The position numbers and the translations under genes were made by a program. The notes beneath the pieces were generated by a model that saw nothing but the letters and a program-made list of their open reading frames with translations, was not told the origin of the DNA and did no database searches. Below, in pieces: positions 6,427 through 16,594 of a DNA stretch of 64,000 bases (within the stretch, counting starts at the first letter, position 1; each line of letters opens with the position of its first letter). This DNA is from Candidatus Poribacteria bacterium (GTDB lineage Bacteria > Poribacteria > WGA-4E > WGA-3G). The DNA is taken from NCBI GenBank assembly GCA_965215265.1, contig OZ244048.1, positions 1,183,121-1,247,120 on the forward strand, in the 5' to 3' direction.

Positions 6427-7653
6427 TTGTGTATAATTCATGTTAAGGAGATTTCGTCTTTACAATATGCAAAACGGCGAAGCGAAAGCAAGGTGGCAGG
6501 CGGCACCCCAGCACAAACGAACCGAACAATGACAAAAGAAACCGAGTTTTTTACAGCTTTCAATATACCTATCGGACAGTTTCCCGACCGGAGTGCCCGG
6601 TTCTTGCTGGAGAACAAGCACAATGTCCGGGGACTTTTAGAAATTATTGCCGCACCTCTCGTACCGCAGCTAGATTTCGATAGACTTGTACAACTTAACC
6701 GCAGCTTCCTCCCTGCCAATTTACGCGAGCAGGAGTCAGACCTCGTCTATCGCGTGCCGTTTCAGAACGCAACCAAACAGGAAGAGCTGCTCATCTATAT
6801 CCTCATTGAACATCAATCCACCGTGGATGTAAGCATGGCATTTCGGATACTGTTTTATATGATGCAGATTTGGGATGGCCAGCGCCGCCAATGGGAAGCA
6901 GAAAACGTGCCGAAAGGCCAGTGGAAATTCCGCCCAATTCTGCCTATTGTATTTTACACCGGGGACCGGCACTGGAAGCAACCTTTAACTCTGCAGTCCT
7001 TGATGGATGTTCCCGAAGAACTTAAGCGGTTCGTGCCACAATTCGATACCTTGTTTCTTAGTGTGAAAGAGAGCGACGCGGCAAGGTTGACTGAAACAAA
7101 CCATCCGTTCGGGTGGCTACTGAGCGTGCTGCAAAAGGAACACGCACCCAAAGAGGAGTTGCGGACGGTGTTGCTTGCTGCACTGCGCTCTCTGAATACT
7201 TTGGATAACACGGCACACTCGCAGTGGCGGCAAGCAATTTGGTATTTACAGTTATTAATATTCCATCGTCGTCAACCGGATGAACAAGAAGAGTTAATAA
7301 AGTTACTCTCAGAAAATATAGAAGATTTTACCCGTAAAGAGGAGGAAAAAATCATGGCACAGACTATAGCAGAATATCTTAGGGACCAAGGCATTGCAAT
7401 TGGAGAGTCGCGTGGCAGGGAAGAAGGGGAAGCACGTGGCAGAGAAGAAGGGGAAGCGCACGGCAAAACGCAAGCGAAACAAGAGGCTATCCTCAAACTG
7501 CTCGAACTCCGATTTCAGCAGGTGCCCGAAACGGTGAACCGGACCATCACCGAAATCCAGGAACTTTCGCACTTGGACGTGTTATTTGAGAAGGTAGCGA
7601 CTGCACAATCCCTTGACGAAATACAATGGAATGGCAACCCTAATGTAGAATAG
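6427..7653 (+). CDS. Rpn-family (YhgA-like) recombination-promoting nuclease/putative transposase
   Basis: PD-(D/E)XK-type core (LIYILIEHQS). The C-terminal region with REEGEARGREEGEAHG repeats and DUF4351-like tail is typical of Rpn/Transposase_31 proteins. Confidence 0.7.
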   Translation: MCIIHVKEISSLQYAKRRSESKVAGGTPAQTNRTMTKETEFFTAFNIPIGQFPDRSARFLLENKHNVRGLLEIIAAPLVPQLDFDRLVQLNRSFLPANLREQESDLVYRVPFQNATKQEELLIYILIEHQSTVDVSMAFRILFYMMQIWDGQRRQWEAENVPKGQWKFRPILPIVFYTGDRHWKQPLTLQSLMDVPEELKRFVPQFDTLFLSVKESDAARLTETNHPFGWLLSVLQKEHAPKEELRTVLLAALRSLNTLDNTAHSQWRQAIWYLQLLIFHRRQPDEQEELIKLLSENIEDFTRKEEEKIMAQTIAEYLRDQGIAIGESRGREEGEARGREEGEAHGKTQAKQEAILKLLELRFQQVPETVNRTITEIQELSHLDVLFEKVATAQSLDEIQWNGNPNVE

Positions 7654-9479: not shown

Positions 9480-12179
9480 ATGAAATACCTGTTTGAAAAT
9501 TTACGCGACGATACACAAAAGTGGCGCAGCACCGGATACCCGTGTACAGATTACCCACTCATCGCGGAAATCCTACGTTGGCAATTTGAAGGTGAACCGC
9601 AAGAGCAAATCGCCCTCAAATACCTCCGAGAACCGCAATTCCAAGCACTAGAAATCTATTGGTTCCTCAGATTGGTGCGAAAGACACCGCATATTGTCGA
9701 TCTTTACAAGCACTATTACAGCGACGATAAACGCGACTTCTTTAAAGCGTTCGGGATTCCAATCGATCCAACCGAGCTCCAATGGATTCCTAATGTTGAC
9801 ACTGTCATTGACCGGGTAAGAACTGACCCTGAATTCGTTAAACAGAAGCGAATCGAGCCCGTTCATGAGGCTGTGACGCTCCCATACCCTAGCTATATCT
9901 TCGCGCTCGCGATGGGCACCGGCAAGACGGTACTCATCGCCACTATTATTGCCACCGAATTCGCCATGGCACTTCGATATCCTGAAGGTAGCTTTATGAA
10001 AAATGCACTCGTCTTTGCACCCGGTACAACCATCATAGAGAGTTTACGCGAGATTAGCGCAGTTCCTTTCGAGAAAATCCTGCCCGCAAGCCTACACCGT
10101 GACTTCCTCGCGAATCTCAAGATGACCTATCCACAGACCGGCGCAAAAGAAATTCAAGTCCAACAAGGCAGCACTTACAATGTCATCGTCACGAATACCG
10201 AGAAAATTAGCCTCAGGGCGAACCTGACGCGACGCACGAATCAGACAGAAATGGAGTTCGAGGAAAAAGAGAAAAAAGCGAAATTAGAGGCAAACCTCCG
10301 ACTGCAAAAAATCGCAAGCCTACCCAATTTAGGGGTTTTTTCCGACGAAGCACACCATACTTACGGCAATAGAATGGATAAAGAACTCAAGCGAGTCCGT
10401 GAAACCGTCAACTACATCAATGAGGAAACGCGCCTCATCGCGGTTGTCAACACCACCGGTACGCCTTACTACAAACGGCAGATGCTCCGCGAAGTTGTCG
10501 CGTGGTACAGCCTCGGTGAAGGTATTGAGGATAATATCCTAAAAAGCCTCAATAACGGGATTATCCATTACGACATTGGTGAACGTTCTGATGAAGATGT
10601 AATCCGAGATGTGATTGTTGAATTTTTCAAGAACTACGATGGCGTTACGCTGTCCAACGGTGCAAAAGCGAAAATCGCTTTCTACTTCAAAACGCAAGAC
10701 CATCTCGGTACCTCACGTCTCCACATTGAAAGAACATTGGCTGAACTCGGCAAGAGCCCAACTCTGATACTTGTTAATACGCAGCGTTCAACTCAAACCG
10801 AGATTGACGAATTCAACCGACTTAACGATCCGGATAGTCAGAAGCGCATCCTACTCCTCATCGGTAAAGGTGTAGAAGGCTGGAATTGCCCGAGTCTATT
10901 TGCCTGTGCCTTAATTAAGGAACAGACAACAAGCAGCAACTTTGTCTTGCAAGCCTCAACGCGATGCCTCCGTCAAGTGCCCGGAAATACGCAGCCCGCC
11001 AAAATCTTTTTGGATACGAAGAACCGAAGCATTTTAGACAAGGAATTGCAGGACAACTTCGGAACTACCTTGCAAAATCTCGGTGGACACACCGCAGCTA
11101 CAGAAGAAATTGAGCTCCGTATTCGCAAGCCAGAACTACCGGAACTGCAAATCTCACGGCTAATTTCTCGTGTTGTTCGGAAGGAACAGACCTCCGGCCC
11201 CTTGCAGTTGACAATTCCGGCTGAAGGAGTAGATGTCCCACCTATTCACCGGGCGACGCTAACACCGAATTTCACAAGCAGGACATCCCGACTCATAGGT
11301 AGAACGGAAATTGACGAGATTCCTTTGATGAACAGATCCACGGATTGCTATACGCTCTCGCGGCGCATCGCAGCAAATTATCACCTCCCTTATATGCAAA
11401 CGCTCAAAAGCCTCAAACTGCTCTATCCAGAAGGTGAGGTCCCCAATACGCACCTCCACCCGCTCTACCAACAAGTGGAAAACCAGTTGCAGAATTACGA
11501 CGTAATTAACGAAGAGGTAACCGAAACCCTGGCACTCATTCGTACCCTTGATAAGGAGGGTAAGCCTGTTTTTGACGAGGAAGAAGATGGATACTACATT
11601 CACCGCTTACGTTTGCTCAAACGCACCGTAGAGCGAATGAAAGAGGGCGGCCTGTTGTTTGAAGCAGGAAACCTATTGGACGAACACGATGTCACTTTCC
11701 ACTATGCACCCTACAACTTTGATACCGTGCCAGAACGCCGCTTTTTTGAGGAAATTCTGAACACGGTCAACGCATCCGGGGACGACATCGACATCTTTCT
11801 ATTTACCGGCGGATTAACGGATCCCAACAAAACGGATTTCCACTTTGAATACAAGGGTGTCGATGGCAATTATCACCGCTATTTTCCCGACTTTGTCATT
11901 GTCAAGAAAACCGGTGCAGTTTTCATCGTCGAAATTAAGGCTGAAAGCGAACGGAACGATGAAACCGTCCAAGCCAAAAGCAAAGCAGTCGAACGTTTGC
12001 CGAAGTTGCAAGCCGCCGGTAGCGAATTGAAGTCGGTTCCACCTTTCAAATATCACGTTGTTTATACCACGACGAATCGACTCCAAGAGAATCTCGACAC
12101 GATTAGACCCGTCATAAATTGGATTCGTCCGACTGAAGACTCAGAAACAGGAGGAGCTTATGAAAATTACGCCGGTTAA
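9480..12179 (+). CDS. res: Type III restriction enzyme Res subunit (helicase + PD-(D/E)XK nuclease)
   Basis: Walker A (AMGTGKT) and DEAH box (FSDEAHHTYG). The C-terminal YFPDFVIV...VFIVEIKAE is a PD-ExK motif. The gene overlaps the downstream mod start by 20 nt. Confidence 0.8.
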   Translation: MKYLFENLRDDTQKWRSTGYPCTDYPLIAEILRWQFEGEPQEQIALKYLREPQFQALEIYWFLRLVRKTPHIVDLYKHYYSDDKRDFFKAFGIPIDPTELQWIPNVDTVIDRVRTDPEFVKQKRIEPVHEAVTLPYPSYIFALAMGTGKTVLIATIIATEFAMALRYPEGSFMKNALVFAPGTTIIESLREISAVPFEKILPASLHRDFLANLKMTYPQTGAKEIQVQQGSTYNVIVTNTEKISLRANLTRRTNQTEMEFEEKEKKAKLEANLRLQKIASLPNLGVFSDEAHHTYGNRMDKELKRVRETVNYINEETRLIAVVNTTGTPYYKRQMLREVVAWYSLGEGIEDNILKSLNNGIIHYDIGERSDEDVIRDVIVEFFKNYDGVTLSNGAKAKIAFYFKTQDHLGTSRLHIERTLAELGKSPTLILVNTQRSTQTEIDEFNRLNDPDSQKRILLLIGKGVEGWNCPSLFACALIKEQTTSSNFVLQASTRCLRQVPGNTQPAKIFLDTKNRSILDKELQDNFGTTLQNLGGHTAATEEIELRIRKPELPELQISRLISRVVRKEQTSGPLQLTIPAEGVDVPPIHRATLTPNFTSRTSRLIGRTEIDEIPLMNRSTDCYTLSRRIAANYHLPYMQTLKSLKLLYPEGEVPNTHLHPLYQQVENQLQNYDVINEEVTETLALIRTLDKEGKPVFDEEEDGYYIHRLRLLKRTVERMKEGGLLFEAGNLLDEHDVTFHYAPYNFDTVPERRFFEEILNTVNASGDDIDIFLFTGGLTDPNKTDFHFEYKGVDGNYHRYFPDFVIVKKTGAVFIVEIKAESERNDETVQAKSKAVERLPKLQAAGSELKSVPPFKYHVVYTTTNRLQENLDTIRPVINWIRPTEDSETGGAYENYAG

Positions 12180-13925
12180 AGGGAGAGCGATGCTGCACTG
12201 GGTGGGCAAACGCCCCATCGGCACGGTGAGCAACTATCCCGCCCAATTGGTGGAAACTTGTAACGTTGAAAACCCAGAGAAAGAGCCGCTATATGATGGA
12301 TTTTTGGAGGGGCCGAACCTCGTTTTTCACGGCGACAACAAGGAGATCCTCTCCACCTTACTCGTCAACGGTTTCCGCAGTAAGATAGACCTCATCTACA
12401 TTGACCCGCCCTTTGCCAGCGGTGCAGACTACGTTCGAAAGGTAAAACTCCGCGGCATTAGCAGGTCAACCTTGGATGAAGGTGCTGGGAACCCAGGTGG
12501 GAGTAGGGGGGGGGTAAACCTGCTTCTTTAACAGGCGAAGGTCACTCCATTATTGAACAGACACAATACACCGACATCTGGGCGAATGATAATTATCTCC
12601 AGTTCATGTTTGAGCGGCTTATCTTAATGCGCGAACTGCTTTCGGATGCCGGCTCTATTTACCTGCACTGTGACCCAACGATGAGTCATTATCTGAAGTT
12701 GCTCATGGATGAAATTTTTAGTGGAATGTTTCGGAGAGAATTAATTTGGGCAATGCCGCGTCCTAGTGGATTTAAAACGCAAGCTCAGAATTGGATCCGA
12801 AATCATGATGTTATTCTCTATTACGCCACAGAAAATGCCATGTTTCATAAGCAATACGAACCTTATGAGGAGTCTTACCTCGCAAATTTCGATAAATCGG
12901 ACGAAAAAGGACGATATTGGCTGCGCAATGGGCAAAAGAGAAGATTAGGGAAAGGCTATACACTCGGAGATGTCTGGACTGACATCGACTCTATGCAAAC
13001 GCAATCCGTGAGTCTGAGTGAAGGGCTTGGCTACCCTACCCAGAAACCGGAGGCTCTAATAGCCCGCATCATCAAAGCGTCAAGCAATGAAGACTCCATC
13101 GTGCTTGATTGCTTCGTGGGCAGTGGCACCACCGCAGTCGTGGCTGAAAAACTCCGCAGACGCTGGATTGCCGCAGATCTGAACAGAGGCGCGATACAGA
13201 CGACAATGAAACGCATCCAGACAACCATTGCCGAACACCGCGGAATCGCTCACTATCGCATCAATAACTATCACTTTGGCAAAGAACAGGAACTCCATCG
13301 GCTTGTCATAGAAAAGTATGGTGTCGAAACGGACAAGAAAGACCGCTTCTTTGACGGCACCGTAGAGGGGACGCTTGTCAAAATCGTTGAGCTGACAAAA
13401 CCGCTCACCCGATTAGATATTCAACTTATCAAAGACGAACTTCAGCACCGCCCTGATGAGGCACGCGCTGTTACAGTCCTCTGCAACGGCAGCGAGTTGG
13501 GAATACAAGCCGAACTTGACGCAGAAAACAAGCGGCACCCGATTAATCAACTCATCGTGCGGGACATCCAACGCGACGGTGTCACTACCTTCGCCCCTGC
13601 TGAAGCAGAAGTTGACTTCAAAAGAGACGGGCAACACGTTACCATCACCCTCGTAGATTATATCAGTCCGAGCCTCTTAGGGCGTTTGGAGATAGCCCGC
13701 ACCCTCTTTGACGAACAAGTTGATGATTTCCGTGCGCAGATTGATTGCGTGCTGATAGATACGGACTACAACGGCACGCATTTCAGAATCGTTGAGAGTG
13801 ATGTGCCGGAGCAGAGAACCGATTTTATCAGGGGCCAATACACGGTAGTGCTGCCGCGCCGTGATGCCCGTGTTGCCGTCAAGATTATTGATATGCTTGG
13901 CGAGGAAACTCTCATCACAGAATAA
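12160..13925 (+). CDS. mod: Type III Mod DNA methyltransferase, allele 1 (frameshifted at a G9 tract, i.e. phase-OFF as sequenced)
   Basis: The N-terminal ORF (12160-12531) carries IYIDPPF (motif IV). The downstream ORF (12606-13925) carries FVGSGTT (motif I). The two frames are split at a homopolymeric G9 run. The order IV-TRD-I is typical of type III beta-class Mod. Confidence 0.75.
12506..12514 (+). repeat. Homopolymeric G9 tract inside mod allele 1
   Basis: Counted directly in the sequence: gagta-GGGGGGGGG-taaacc. 7 or 10 G would give an in-frame fusion of the two mod ORFs. Confidence 0.9.
13035..13925 (+). repeat. Conserved 3' module of mod (891 nt), directly repeated at 14839-15729
   Basis: Near-identical nucleotide sequence between the two mod alleles. 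A similar 5' module is repeated at about 12160-12615 and 13968-14415. Confidence 0.8.
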
Positions 13926-13967
13926 CATCAGAAAAAGGACCTGAAGCCCTATGCGAGAGGAGAACTC

Positions 13968-15729
13968 ATGAAAATTACGCCGGTTAAAGGGAGAGCAATG
14001 CTGCACTGGGTGGGCAAACGCCCCATCGGCACGGTGAGCAACTATCCCGCCCAATTGGTGGAAACTTATAACGTTGAAAACCCAGAGAAAGAGCCGCTAT
14101 ATGATGGATTTTTGGAGGGGCCGAACCTCGTTTTTCACGGCGACAACAAGGAGATCCTCTCCACCTTACTCGTCAACGGTTTCCGCAGTAAGATAGACCT
14201 CATCTACATTGACCCGCCCTTTGCCAGCGGTGCAGACTACGTTCGAAAGGTAAAACTCCGCGGCATTAGCAGGTCAACCTTGGATGAAGGTGCTGGGAAC
14301 CCAGGTGGGAGTAGGGGGGGGTAAACCTGCTTCTTTAACAGGCGAAGGCCCCTCCATTATTGAACAGACACAATACACCGACATCTGGGCGAATGATAAC
14401 TATCTCCAATTCATGTTTGAACGCCTGATCTTGATGCGAGAGCTGCTGAGTGAAAAAGGGAGCATCTACCTGCACTGCGACTGGCATAAGAGCCATCATC
14501 TCCGTATGCTCCTCGATGAAGTGTTCGGCGAACAGAACTTCGTCAATGAGATTGTCTGGAAATATAACTGGGCGAGCACAGTAAAAAAGAAGTTCTCCCA
14601 AAAACATGACACGATTTTCTGGTACGCCAAAAGTGCTGAAGAGTGGATTTTCAATTTAGACGAGATGCGGGAACTGTATACAGAAACACAATTGAAGGGC
14701 TATAAACAGGATGAAGATGGGTATTATACATTGGACTCTTCGGGGAAAAAATGGTACGCACATTCAAAAGGACAATTGCCCGCAGACCTGTTTGAAATTG
14801 GTATTATCAGCAGAAGCGCAAAAGAACGGCAAAAATTTCCTACCCAGAAACCGGAGGCTCTAATAGCCCGCATCATCAAAGCGTCAAGCAAGGAAGACTC
14901 CATCGTGCTTGATTGCTTCGTGGGAAGCGGCACCACCGCAGTCGTGGCTGAAAAACTCCGCAGACGCTGGATTGCCGCAGATCTGAACAGAGGGGCCATA
15001 CAGACGACAATGAAACGCATCCAGACAACTATTGCCGAACACCGCGGAATCGCTCACTATCGCATCAATAACTATCACTTTGGCAAAGAACAGGAACTCC
15101 ATCGGCTTGTCATAGAAAAGTATGGTGTCGAAACGGACAAGAAAGACCGCTTCTTTGACGGCACCGTAGACGGAACCCTCGTCAAAATCGTTGAGCTGAC
15201 GAAACCGCTCACCCGATTAGATATTCAACTTATCAAAGACGAACTGCAGCACCGCCCTGATGAGACGCGCTCGGTGACGGTGCTCTGCAACGGCAGCGAG
15301 CTGGGAATACAAGCTGAACTTGACGCAGAAAACAAGCGGCACCCGATTAATAAACTCATCGTGCGGGACATCCAACGCGACGGGGTTACAACCTTCGCCC
15401 CTGCCGAAGCAGAAGTTGCCTTCAAAAGAGATGGGCAACACGTCACCATTACCCTCGTAGATTATATCAGTCCGAGCCTCTTAGGGCGTTTGGAGATAGC
15501 CCGCACCCTCTTTGACGAACAAGTTGATGATTTCCGTGCGCAGATTGATTGCGTGCTGATAGATACGGACTACAACGGCACGCATTTCAGAATCGTTGAG
15601 AGTGATTTGCCGGAGAAGCAGAGCGATTTTATCAAAGGCCAATACACGGTAGTGCTGCCGCGCCGTGATGCCCGTGTTGCCGTCAAGATTATTGATATGC
15701 TTGGCGAGGAAACGGTAGTAACGGGATAA
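13968..15729 (+). CDS. mod: Type III Mod DNA methyltransferase, allele 2 (different central TRD; frameshifted at a G8 tract)
   Basis: The first 118 codons are near-identical to allele 1. The last ~890 nt (from PTQKPEALIARIIKAS onward) are near-identical to allele 1. The central ~385 nt are unrelated. ORFs 13968-14324 and 14284-15729 overlap at a G8 tract. Confidence 0.75.
14314..14321 (+). repeat. Homopolymeric G8 tract inside mod allele 2
   Basis: gagta-GGGGGGGG-taaacc. This is one G shorter than allele 1 and also out of frame. Confidence 0.9.
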
Positions 15730-15869: not shown

Positions 15870-16259
15870 ATGAAACTGATTAAGTTTTTGGCATTGACGT
15901 TATTCTTGTCTGCTTTCAGTCTGCTTTGGACTGGCGTAACCTCAGCATTAGATGAATGGGTTTTTGTTGACATTGAATCTTACTCTAACACGAAACTGGT
16001 CGAGCACGAGTGGTGGACGTTGAATCCGGGCGACAGCACGCTGTCCCGCTTGCCTATTGGTGAGATTGGTGAATTTGAAGGACCTGACAAAAAAGTGGAG
16101 TTCCAGATTATAGACGGTGCCATCGTCCTGTTCGGTACCAATGCTGTGAAGTGGCCGAAGGCGGTTGAAGACATTGCTGTTGAAGGTAAGGCGACATTCA
16201 TCTATTTTCTTACGCAACCGGTTGGGAACAGAACGGGGTGCCGAGTTACAAATTTGTGA
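15870..16259 (+). CDS. Hypothetical small secreted protein
   Basis: Signal peptide MKLIKFLALTLFLSAFSLLW. Overlaps the next ORF (16238-16594) in another frame near a GGGG run, so a frameshift is possible. Confidence 0.3.
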   Translation: MKLIKFLALTLFLSAFSLLWTGVTSALDEWVFVDIESYSNTKLVEHEWWTLNPGDSTLSRLPIGEIGEFEGPDKKVEFQIIDGAIVLFGTNAVKWPKAVEDIAVEGKATFIYFLTQPVGNRTGCRVTNL

Positions 16260-16594
16260 TGAACTATCAAAATGGCAAGAAGGAAGAATTTGAAATGATT
16301 TCCGGGCATAACTCAGATGATTGGTTCCACGATGGTACACCGCTTGCCGATGATAACTCTGTGTGGGGATGGATTCTGAAAGAAGGAGGTCCTTGTGGGC
16401 ATGCAGGGTTGGTGAATACCAAATGGGAAAATCCGCATCCAGAGGTCTGGATTGATACAATAGATGCAATCTCTTTAGAGTTGGGCTCAGTGCCGATTAT
16501 CCCCGCCATTACATTGGGCGAAGCGACGCTTGCAGTCGAACCTATGTCGAAATTGACAGTGAGATGGGGCAGTCTAAAAGACTCTCGTGATTAA
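16238..16594 (+). CDS. Hypothetical protein (possibly the 3' part of the preceding gene)
   Basis: 118-aa ORF overlapping the 3' end of 15870-16259. Confidence 0.25.
   Translation: MPSYKFVMNYQNGKKEEFEMISGHNSDDWFHDGTPLADDNSVWGWILKEGGPCGHAGLVNTKWENPHPEVWIDTIDAISLELGSVPIIPAITLGEATLAVEPMSKLTVRWGSLKDSRD

What the first reader, a model, noticed from the sequence alone, without database searches (positions are those of the whole stretch)
12501..12531. Homopolymeric G tracts (G9 and G8) put both mod alleles out of frame, so this is either a phasevarion or a homopolymer sequencing error
Counting bases directly: allele 1 has 9 G (12506-12514) and allele 2 has 8 G (14314-14321), at the same position just after the DPPF motif. 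With 7 or 10 G the upstream frame (..PGGSRGG) reads through into ..KPASLTGEG..IIEQTQYTDIW..MFERLILMRELL, giving a full-length Mod. With 8 or 9 G it stops. Both alleles are therefore OFF as sequenced, with different tract lengths. Slipped-strand tracts like this are the hallmark of phase-variable type III mod genes. Alternatively, homopolymer under-calling of a true G10 could produce the same picture.
Basis: seen in the sequence. Interest (0 to 1): 0.7.

Follow-up and report, generated by a model that had tools for sequence, protein, structure and literature searches.

The report
Poly-G switches in tandem methylase genes
Two neighbouring DNA-methylase genes of an uncultured sponge bacterium (Poribacteria) are each knocked out of frame by a real run of 8 or 9 G, the classic kind of slippery on/off switch, and the same chromosome appears to carry at least six more such genes, all read as "off".

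Summary
In detail: G9 at 12506-12514 and G8 at 14314-14321. Each tract splits an otherwise intact ~588-aa methyltransferase gene, and only 7, 10 or 13 G restore the frame.

The genes are tandem paralogues, not alleles. They share 5' and 3' modules but have different target-recognition domains, and they sit behind an intact Type III-like res gene.

Under-calling of an in-frame G10 is unlikely. The same out-of-frame G9 or G8 occurs in 13 related copies from at least five other assemblies, including SPAdes-style contigs at 52x and 120x, JGI contigs and a Logan contig.

Long-dead pseudogenes are also unlikely. Every copy has the tract as its only lesion, and the frame downstream of it shows purifying selection (dN/dS 0.02-0.23).

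The tract lies in a flexible, lineage-specific loop after the DPPF motif. Other lineages carry G9 (in frame), G12 and G20 in that loop.

Best reading: hypermutable poly-G contingency tracts whose consensus state is OFF. Switching itself is not shown. No in-frame version of this lineage exists in the protein database, which is unexplained.

This is a new member of a known kind, in sponge symbionts, with about 8 copies per genome.

The parts
9480..12179 (+). res gene (899 aa), intact: SF2 helicase-type ATPase with a C-terminal PD-ExK nuclease motif. Its last 20 nt overlap the mod1 start.
   Evidence: Pfam ResIII 29.7 bits, above the 22.5 cut-off. MGTGKT, FSDEAHH, NTTGTPY, QAxTRCLRQ and PDFV..K..G.....E.K are at least 97% conserved in 54 homologues. 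A homologue lies upstream on the same strand in nearly all of the 71 of 79 related loci that carry one.
12160..12531 (+). mod1 5' part as sequenced: a 123-aa ORF carrying the DPPF motif and ending 5 codons after the tract. An AGGAGG Shine-Dalgarno sequence lies 5 nt before the ATG.
12506..12514 (+). G9 tract of mod1. It is in frame only at 7, 10 or 13 G.
12515..13925 (+). mod1 3' part, in the frame that needs one extra G: conserved EGHSIIEQTQYTDIW block, target-recognition domain (about 12641-13034), FVGSGTT AdoMet motif and a ~230-aa C-terminal domain. There is no stop codon in this frame.
   Evidence: PF01555 at 5e-43 on the repaired protein. dN/dS is 0.02-0.23 among paralogues.
13926..13967 (+). 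42-nt spacer between mod1 and mod2, with a GAGGAG Shine-Dalgarno sequence before the mod2 ATG.
13968..14324 (+). mod2 5' part as sequenced: a 118-aa ORF whose TAA stop follows the tract directly.
14314..14321 (+). G8 tract of mod2. It is in frame only at 7, 10 or 13 G. This is the only indel in 17.3 kb when compared with a 99.1%-identical assembly, which has G9 here.
14284..15729 (+). mod2 3' part: a 481-aa ORF that starts at an ATG just upstream of the tract and reads through it. Its target-recognition domain (about 14448-14838) is unrelated to that of mod1.
   Evidence: PF01555 at 4e-53 on the repaired protein.
12151..12640 (+). Shared 5' module, 96.7% identical to 13957-14447 in mod2. It contains the tract.
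13035..13909 (+). Shared 3' module, 95.7% identical to 14839-15713 in mod2.

Best explanation
The window holds a Type III-like restriction-modification locus of a Poribacteria sponge symbiont, in the order res - mod1 - mod2. The two mod genes are tandem paralogues with near-identical 5' and 3' modules and unrelated target-recognition domains.

Each carries a real homopolymeric G tract in a flexible, lineage-specific loop about 30 residues after the catalytic DPPF motif. The tract behaves as a hypermutable contingency site. Slipped-strand mispairing during replication adds or removes a G. Lengths of 7, 10 or 13 give a full-length methyltransferase, and any other length truncates it at 118-124 aa.

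In the population that was assembled, the majority state of both genes is OFF (G9 and G8). Type III Res enzymes need Mod to find DNA (established knowledge of the family), so the whole system would be silent until a tract slips into frame. Two independent tracts could then give four states and two specificities.

Shown: the tracts, the frames, the intact and selected downstream frames, and recurrence in independent assemblies and lineages.

Inferred: the high switching rate, reversibility, and any effect on methylation, restriction or gene expression.
For: 1. Tract and frames.

2. Not an assembly artefact. Thirteen related copies outside the window are all out of frame, and all are restored by 7 or 10 G.
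- L080: G9 and G9 (99.1% identical over 17.3 kb)
- L081: G8
- L170, L171, L172: G9 each
- L173, L174: G9 each, on SPAdes-style NODE contigs at cov 52 and 120
- L175, L176: G8 each, JGI metagenomes
- L177: G8, Logan SRR7783607

3. A8 and T8 runs inside the window's long ORFs do not break them.

4. Not old pseudogenes.
- In 10 copies with at least 7 different recognition domains, the tract is the only lesion.
- dN/dS downstream of the tract is 0.10-0.23 in the C-terminal module (dS up to 0.24) and 0.02-0.23 just after the tract (dS up to about 1).

5. Tract instability. The only indel in 17.3 kb between the window and L080 is this tract, 8 versus 9.

6. The same loop carries other G tracts in other lineages: G9 in frame (L012), G12 (L179) and G20 (L178). 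Other members carry C9, C13 and C10 tracts at three other positions. Repeated origins of this kind are typical of contingency genes.

7. The loop is an ~18-aa insertion absent from most of the family and is modelled at pLDDT about 30, so it can tolerate one Gly more or less.

8. G9 meets the published criterion for a potentially phase-variable mod gene, a mononucleotide tract of at least 9 (PMC5909438).

9. Type III character.
- Foldseek top hits are the Mods 6K0W, 4ZCF (EcoP15I) and 7DSU.
- Res carries the expected motifs.
- The res-mod pairing is conserved in 71 of 79 loci.
Against: - No in-frame (G7 or G10) version of this lineage was found among 5.8 billion protein clusters, while at least 17 distinct out-of-frame N-terminal fragments exist.
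- All 8 fragments attributed to the source chromosome are OFF. (2/3)^8 = 0.04 if the copies were independent. They are probably not, because the 5' modules are homogenised by gene conversion.
- Observed lengths are only 8 and 9, a narrow spread for a fast switch.
- Within the window's own lineage (window, L080, L081, L170-L174), G8 occurs only in long-read-style assemblies and G9 in all six copies from the SPAdes-related assemblies. The 8-versus-9 difference may therefore be partly technical. G8 does occur in JGI and Logan contigs of a sister lineage.
- No reads were available, so within-population heterogeneity was not observed.
- Between the two close strains, Res shows 12.5 non-synonymous against 4.5 synonymous changes. 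This could mean relaxed constraint.
Confidence: 0.6

Rival explanations
1. Recent, parallel inactivation. The tract is simply the most mutable site in the gene. Selection on these methylases has recently relaxed in this symbiont lineage, so every copy has been hit there first. The genes are young pseudogenes and the switch is not used adaptively.
For: - All copies of this lineage are OFF and no ON copy exists in public data.
- Many relatives in sponge-symbiont assemblies are truncated at other places as well (P0138-P0168).
- Res has dN/dS of about 0.8 between the two close strains.
Against: - OFF states are shared by strains about 1% diverged and by paralogue lineages with dS of 0.25-0.4, yet none of 10 copies (about 460 codons each downstream of the tract) has a second lesion.
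- Differences between copies and between strains are strongly biased to synonymous sites.
- A pure G tract is kept in all copies and in a sister lineage at 63% protein identity (L012), although synonymous GGN codons could break it.
Confidence: 0.2
2. Recoding. The out-of-frame lengths are the working state. Some full-length Mod is made through RNA-polymerase slippage on the G run, or through ribosomal frameshifting. For G9 this would be a -1 shift on G_GGG_GGG, which gives exactly the G10 protein. For G8 it would be a +1 shift at GGG-UAA, which gives exactly the G7 protein, with the SD-like GGGAG just upstream.
For: - This is the signature of a conserved frameshift. Both ORF parts are under purifying selection, and DNA-level in-frame versions are absent from public data.
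- 9 of the 10 copies examined in this lineage outside the window are G9, and both C9 tracts of L022 are likewise one base short of in-frame.
- The geometry of the shift products was worked out from the sequence.
Against: - G8 and G9 need opposite shifts, so there is no single conserved frameshift direction.
- The sister lineage L012 has G9 in frame.
- The 96 nt after the tract have no stable or covarying structure: z = +0.67, and 150 of 200 shuffles fold at least as well.
- Bacterial transcriptional slippage is documented for A and T runs (PMC1088944 title and abstract). From my own knowledge, evidence for G runs is much weaker.
Confidence: 0.1
3. Assembly or sequencing error. The true tract is an in-frame G10 (or G7) that was mis-sized in the consensus, and both genes are simply ON.
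For: - The source is a 4.83-Mb single contig. Related contigs have metaMDBG-style names, so it is probably PacBio HiFi, whose main error class is homopolymer length (own knowledge).
- Within the window's own lineage, G8 calls are seen only in such assemblies.
Against: - Out-of-frame G9 is called at 6 of 6 copies in SPAdes-style and related assemblies, two of them at 52x and 120x.
- Out-of-frame G8 is called in two JGI contigs and one Logan contig of a sister lineage.
- Not one of at least 17 copies was called in frame.
- G10 read as G8 would require a 2-base consensus error.
- Five A8 runs inside long ORFs of the window are correctly sized.
Confidence: 0.05

Closest known systems
Phase-variable Type III mod genes with mononucleotide G tracts (Helicobacter pylori modH/modJ/modL, Campylobacter upsaliensis modU; survey in PMC5909438)
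   Same: - A poly-G tract of about 9 lies inside the mod ORF.
- Frame is restored only at every third length.
- The central target-recognition domain varies between conserved 5' and 3' regions.
- Several tract-bearing mod genes occur in one genome.
   Different: - The host is an uncultured, non-pathogenic sponge symbiont with a ~4.8 Mb genome.
- The order is res-mod-mod, with two tandem mods behind one res.
- About 8 tract-bearing paralogues appear to lie on one chromosome, against a maximum of 4 in that survey.
- The different recognition domains are paralogues within one genome rather than alleles between strains.
- The tract lies in a lineage-specific loop after DPPF.
- Switching and ON variants have not been observed.
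EcoP15I-type Type III restriction-modification enzymes (PDB 4ZCF)
   Same: - The Mod is beta-class (DPPF before FxGxG with the recognition domain between them), and the model's best structural matches are Type III Mods.
- Res carries DEAH-type helicase motifs and a C-terminal PD-ExK motif.
- The genes are adjacent and overlapping.
   Different: - Gene order is reversed: res is first.
- Sequence identity to the solved Mods is only 15-19%.
- Res has no detectable sequence match in the PDB and none in PADLOC.
- The Mod has an extra ~230-aa C-terminal domain of unknown role.
- No activity is known.
Campylobacter jejuni poly-G 'phasome' (PMC6321876; cj0031 Type IIG enzyme, PMC4889913)
   Same: Many genes in one genome each carry a G8-G10 tract that acts as an independent switch, including a restriction-modification enzyme.
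   Different: There the tracts are spread over unrelated genes and switching has been measured experimentally. Here one gene family has multiplied together with its tract, and nothing has been measured.
Programmed frameshift sites (dnaX -1 on A_AAA_AAG with upstream SD; prfB +1 at CUU_UGA with upstream SD)
   Same: A slippery run with an SD-like G-rich element just upstream. In the G8 state, a stop codon lies in the A site. Both ORF halves are under purifying selection.
   Different: There is no fixed shift direction, no downstream stimulatory structure (tested), and a sister lineage is in frame at the DNA level.

Membership tests
SSR-driven phase-variable mod gene | Repeat tract inside the ORF, of a length known to be hypermutable (mononucleotide tract of at least 9; PMC5909438) | tested here: met
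   mod1 has G9. mod2 has G8, one short of the criterion, but its orthologue in L080 has G9.
SSR-driven phase-variable mod gene | Changing the tract length toggles between a full-length and a truncated protein | tested here: met
   Lengths of 7, 10 and 13 G give 586-589 aa. All other lengths give 118-124 aa.
SSR-driven phase-variable mod gene | Tract length differs among close relatives or within a population | tested here: inconclusive
   mod2 has 8 G in the window and 9 G in L080, and this is the only indel in 17.3 kb. Both lengths are OFF, the difference may be confounded by sequencing technology, and no reads were available.
SSR-driven phase-variable mod gene | Both ON and OFF variants occur in nature | tested here: not met
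   No in-frame copy of this lineage was found in the protein database. At least 17 distinct OFF fragments exist. An ON state is seen only in sister lineage L012 (G9 in frame), for which no OFF variant was found.
SSR-driven phase-variable mod gene | Switching changes genome methylation and, for a phasevarion, the expression of a regulon | not testable with these tools
   This needs methylome and expression data.
Type III restriction-modification system | Mod is a beta-class N6-adenine methyltransferase with a central target-recognition domain | tested here: met
   - DPPF at residues 82-85 precedes FVGSGTT at residues 319-325, with a variable region of about 135 aa between them.
- PF01555 at 5e-43.
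- PADLOC MTase_III at 1.6e-51, although MTase_II scores slightly higher.
- Foldseek top hits are 6K0W, 4ZCF and 7DSU.
Type III restriction-modification system | Res combines an SF2 DEAH-type ATPase with a C-terminal PD-(D/E)xK nuclease | tested here: met
   Pfam ResIII is above its cut-off. The conserved motifs GTGKT, DEAH, TGTP, QxxTRxxR and PD..(x)..ExK are present. There is no PDB sequence hit and no PADLOC hit, so membership rests on the motifs.
Type III restriction-modification system | Operon order mod then res | tested here: not met
   The order here is res-mod-mod. res lies upstream in nearly all of the 71 related loci that carry one.
Type III restriction-modification system | Res acts only in complex with Mod, with ATP-dependent cleavage at inversely oriented sites | not testable with these tools
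   This needs biochemistry.
Programmed frameshift or transcriptional slippage site | The same frameshift direction is conserved across homologues | tested here: not met
   G9 copies need +1 nt, G8 copies need -1 nt, and L012 is in frame.
Programmed frameshift or transcriptional slippage site | A stimulatory RNA structure downstream of the slippery site | tested here: not met
   MFE -12.2 kcal/mol against a shuffle mean of -14.0, z = +0.67. The covariation term is about 0 across 9 copies.

The most novel reading that the evidence does not exclude
The out-of-frame tracts are not OFF switches but the working configuration. Full-length Mod would be made at a low, set level by polymerase slippage or ribosomal frameshifting on the G run (-1 on G_GGG_GGG for G9, +1 at GGG-UAA for G8). 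This would explain why about 17 copies under purifying selection are never found in frame at the DNA level. It would be a recoded DNA methyltransferase family using a G-run slippage site, multiplied about 8 times in one symbiont genome.
Probability: 0.1. Interest if true: 0.8.

Novelty: new member of a known kind. Interest (0 to 1): 0.5.

Why it matters
Phase-variable methyltransferases are known almost entirely from cultured, host-adapted pathogens. If these tracts do switch, the mechanism extends to uncultured mutualists of sponges. It would also give the largest set of independently switchable mod genes reported for one genome: about 8, mostly without a res partner, against up to 4 in the 2018 REBASE survey. 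That implies combinatorial methylome states inside a symbiont population exposed to dense phage communities.

Practically, it shows that frameshifted methylase genes in long-read metagenome-assembled genomes should not be repaired or discarded as homopolymer errors. It also names loci where existing HiFi kinetics and read pile-ups could test phase variation in nature directly.

The complete absence of in-frame copies, despite purifying selection on the downstream frame, is an unexplained point worth resolving.

Tried and rejected
1. An exact-pattern scan of JGI metagenome contigs with GGTGGGAGTAGGGGGGG gave 80 loci, none of them a mod gene. The left flank was too specific: relatives have CGTGGGAG.

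2. Look-ups of P0002, P0133 and P0131 found nothing on record, so the other copies on the source chromosome could not be read as DNA. Their tract states were inferred from ORF lengths (118 aa = G8, 123 aa = G9).

3. Three protein searches looked for in-frame versions or for ON/OFF pairs.
- The full repaired Mod1 as query found no in-frame relative carrying the tract loop apart from P0029 (locus L012).
- A 148-aa query spanning the tract found none either, and that tool returned only proteins of similar length.
- The N-terminus of the in-frame sister gene P0029 as query found no OFF variant of that lineage.

4. A downstream RNA structure as frameshift stimulator was rejected.

5. The idea that all copies being OFF departs significantly from random phase was softened. 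The 5' modules fall into only about 5 independent lineages, which gives (2/3)^5 = 0.13. Across the wider family, both ON states (L012, L016, L072) and OFF states occur.

6. Using the G8-versus-G9 difference as proof of switching was rejected as decisive, because it may track the assembly technology.

7. Res was searched against PDB sequences and PADLOC with no hits. The sigma-70 promoter and terminator scan did not differ from shuffles.
Full report
**Observation.** The sequence shows G9 at 12506-12514 and G8 at 14314-14321. These are the only G or C runs of 7 or more in the window. The ORF starting at 12160 stops at 12531 (123 aa). The ORF starting at 13968 stops at 14324 (118 aa), on a TAA directly after the tract. 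Replacing either tract with 7, 10 or 13 G gives one open frame of 586-589 aa. All other lengths truncate. A G8 run alone is not rare: shuffles give 0.9 matches per window. Position and conservation are what make these tracts non-random. R-G-G-G written as a pure G run is expected about 1.5% of the time from local codon usage.

**What the genes are.** Both repaired proteins match PF01555 N6_N4_Mtase (5e-43 and 4e-53). They also hit PADLOC MTase_III and MTase_II models and the PDB sequences of M.MboIIA and the EcoP15I Mod.

DPPF (residues 82-85) precedes FVGSGTT (residues 319-325), with a variable region between them. That is the beta-class order used by Type III Mods. An AlphaFold model (pLDDT 66) has its best Foldseek matches in three Type III Mod structures: 6K0W, 4ZCF and 7DSU.

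The upstream 899-aa gene (9480-12179) overlaps the mod1 start by 20 nt and matches Pfam ResIII. It carries GTGKT, DEAH, TGTP, QxxTRxxR and a C-terminal PD...ExK motif, all conserved in 54 homologues. It has no PDB or PADLOC sequence hit.

The locus is therefore Type III-like, but in the order res-mod-mod. This pairing, almost always with res upstream, recurs in 71 of 79 related loci.

mod1 and mod2 are tandem paralogues, not alleles.
- They share a 490-bp 5' module (96.7% identical) and an 875-bp 3' module (95.7% identical).
- Their central recognition domains are unrelated.
- Each has its own Shine-Dalgarno sequence.

**Source and relatives.** The closest genomes are Candidatus Poribacteria metagenome-assembled genomes from sponges. 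The Mod family also occurs at 50-60% identity in Latescibacterota, Nitrospirales, Spongiihabitans, Dehalococcoidia and other groups whose names suggest sponge association. The window's own ORFs are on record on a 4,833,177-bp contig.

**Is it a sequencing error?** The exact N-terminal fragments belong to a 16-member cluster in which every member is 118 or 123 aa. I fetched DNA for related copies and measured the tracts.

| Locus | Source | Tract |
|---|---|---|
| L080 | GCA_964347105.1, 99.1% identical to the window over 17.3 kb | G9 and G9 |
| L081 | metaMDBG-style contig | G8 |
| L170 | metaMDBG-style contig | G9 |
| L171, L172 | GCA_964347105.1 | G9 each |
| L173, L174 | contigs named NODE_..._cov_51.9 and cov_120.0 (SPAdes naming, hence probably short reads; inferred from the names) | G9 each |
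| L175, L176 | sister lineage, two JGI metagenomes | G8 each |
| L177 | sister lineage, Logan assembly | G8 |

All of these are out of frame, and all are restored by 7 or 10 G. A true G10 would have to be under-called in every assembly, with every assembler, and by two bases in the G8 cases. A8 and T8 runs inside the window's long ORFs are correctly sized. I therefore rate the artefact reading at about 5%.

One caveat concerns the window's own lineage. There, G8 appears only in the long-read-style assemblies, and G9 in all six copies from the SPAdes-related ones. A one-base under-call of G9 as G8 in the window cannot be excluded. Both lengths are OFF.

**Are they dead genes?** Ten copies with at least seven different recognition domains were aligned after repair. 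In none is there a second stop or frameshift.

Pairwise Nei-Gojobori estimates show purifying selection on the frame downstream of the tract.
- dN/dS is 0.10-0.23 in the C-terminal module, with dS up to 0.24.
- dN/dS is 0.02-0.23 in the conserved block just after the tract. L170 versus L173, for example, has 15 synonymous and 0 non-synonymous changes.

The 5' modules that carry the tract differ by dS of 0.25-0.4 between lineages, so the tract is older than that divergence. A single ancestral frameshift followed by neutral decay is therefore excluded. Either the OFF states are recent and independent, which is what a hypermutable, reversible tract produces, or the gene is expressed despite the frameshift.

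Recent relaxation of selection cannot be excluded. Res shows 12.5 non-synonymous against 4.5 synonymous changes between the two close strains. Many relatives are truncated elsewhere.

**Where the tract sits, and how often such tracts arise.** Most family members have a short KLRG-KKEELEA-EGHSVIEQ link after motif IV. The window lineage has an ~18-aa insertion there (ISRSTLDEGAGNPGGSRGGGKPASLTG) that contains the tract. The model gives this segment a pLDDT of about 30, so it is probably a flexible loop that tolerates one Gly more or less.

The same loop carries other repeats in other lineages:
- G9 in frame in L012, a Poribacteria chromosome with 63% protein identity
- G12 in a TARA scaffold and G20 in a 2x contig, both out of frame
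- GNGNGN repeats in further members

Other members carry tracts at three other positions:
- C9 at residue ~37 in both genes of a tandem pair, both out of frame (L022)
- C13 at residue ~372, in frame (L016)
- C10 near the C-terminus, in frame (L072)

Repeated, independent origin of homopolymers in one gene family, with both in-frame and out-of-frame states, is what is expected of contingency loci. A G9 tract also meets the criterion used in the REBASE survey of Type III mod genes, in which 17.4% carry such repeats (PMC5909438).

**Evidence for instability.** In a 17.3-kb alignment of the window with L080 there are 157 substitutions and one indel. That indel is the mod2 tract.

**What does not fit.** No in-frame copy of the window's lineage exists among 5.8 billion protein clusters, against at least 17 distinct OFF fragments. 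Eight distinct fragments are attributed to the source chromosome, six of 118 aa and two of 123 aa. Lengths other than 8 and 9 are not seen.

Taken as independent, 8 OFF of 8 has p = 0.04. However, the 5' modules are homogenised: mod1 and mod2 differ at 2 of 345 upstream positions. They fall into about five lineages, which gives p = 0.13. Selection against ON, a deletion bias, and recoding all remain possible.

I tested the recoding idea. The geometry works: a -1 shift on G_GGG_GGG in G9 gives the G10 protein, and a +1 shift at GGG-UAA in G8 gives the G7 protein. Three things count against it. The two states need opposite shifts. L012 is in frame. The downstream 96 nt have no stable or covarying structure (z = +0.67).

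**Mechanism proposed.** The poly-G tracts are hypermutable by slipped-strand mispairing, and the consensus state of both mods is OFF. Because Type III Res depends on Mod (family knowledge), the locus is silent. A slip to 7 or 10 G turns on one specificity. Two tracts give four states.

Five of the seven related loci read as DNA (L081, L170, L171, L172, and L173/L174, which are one locus in two samples) have no intact res beside the mod. Their similarity to the window begins exactly at the mod ATG and ends at its stop. They would therefore act only on methylation, like the phasevarion methylases. Confidence in this mechanism is 0.6.

**Novelty and score.** Poly-G in a Type III mod is a textbook device, so this is a new member of a known kind. 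The unusual points are:
- the host, an uncultured sponge symbiont. The library searches found no paper that combines Poribacteria or sponge symbionts with phase-variable methyltransferases among the listed results
- the res-mod-mod layout
- about 8 tract-bearing paralogues on one chromosome, against up to 4 in the 2018 survey
- the unexplained lack of ON copies

Interest is 0.5.

Noticed in passing
window 12160-15729 compared with L080: Between two 99.1%-identical assemblies, substitutions run at 23-25 per kb in mod1 and mod2 but only 2-8 per kb in the flanking genes. Blocks such as SDAGSIYLHCDPTMSHYLKLLMDE and SEKGSIYLHCDWHKSHHLRMLLDE assort independently of the recognition domain. This suggests gene conversion among the paralogues.
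   Followed up: partly
L022:8018-8026 and L022:9039-9047: Another Poribacteria genome has a tandem mod pair. Each gene has a C9 tract at residue ~37, and both are out of frame, needing C10 or C7. The first copy is also truncated at residue ~353.
   Followed up: partly
L016:9036-9048; L072:9627-9636: In-frame C13 (GLPPPPRG, residue ~372) and C10 (LPPPPR, near the C-terminus) tracts occur in other members of the Mod family.
   Followed up: partly
L178:4373-4392; L179:677-688; L175:1313-1320: G20, G12 and G8 tracts, all out of frame, lie in the same loop after KLRG in three further lineages. The L178 locus has HTH/Peptidase_M78 and DUF4411 genes between res and mod. The L178 contig has only 2x coverage, so its tract length is unreliable.
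   Followed up: partly
Proteins P0064, P0065, P0070, P0082, P0093 (same loop): Some family members carry GNGNGNG repeats, presumably hexanucleotide repeats, in the loop that holds the G tract here.
   Followed up: no
L008:9975 and 10156; L043:892; L048:977; L026:947: Long intergenic G or C tracts (C10, C12, C18, G24, G9) lie near res-mod loci in other sponge-symbiont genomes. No long ORF or mod N-terminus is associated with them.
   Followed up: partly
Proteins P0138-P0168: Many 180-250-aa N-terminal Mod fragments on long contigs end in frameshifted tails inside the recognition domain. Disruption of this family is common in sponge-symbiont assemblies and is not confined to the G tract.
   Followed up: no
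window 9480-12176 compared with L080: Res differs by 12.5 non-synonymous and 4.5 synonymous changes between the two close strains (dN/dS about 0.8). This may reflect relaxed constraint while the mods are OFF, but the counts are small. NFACT shows a similar ratio from only 4 changes.
   Followed up: partly
L001-L079: The res-mod pair occurs at 50-60% protein identity across many phyla named as sponge symbionts (Poribacteria, Latescibacterota, Nitrospirales, Spongiihabitans, Dehalococcoidia, Binatia and others). This suggests horizontal spread within sponge microbiomes. Tandem double or triple mods occur in L007, L008, L059 and L065.
   Followed up: partly
window 15870-16259 and 16238-16594: Small ORFs with no family match lie between mod2 and groEL. 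The first (15870-16259, 129 aa) is called as a gene of the same length at the matching place in L080. They are not present next to the solitary mod copies.
   Followed up: no
window 6427-7653: A YhgA-like (Transposase_31) gene lies two genes upstream of res. It is conserved in place in L080.
   Followed up: no
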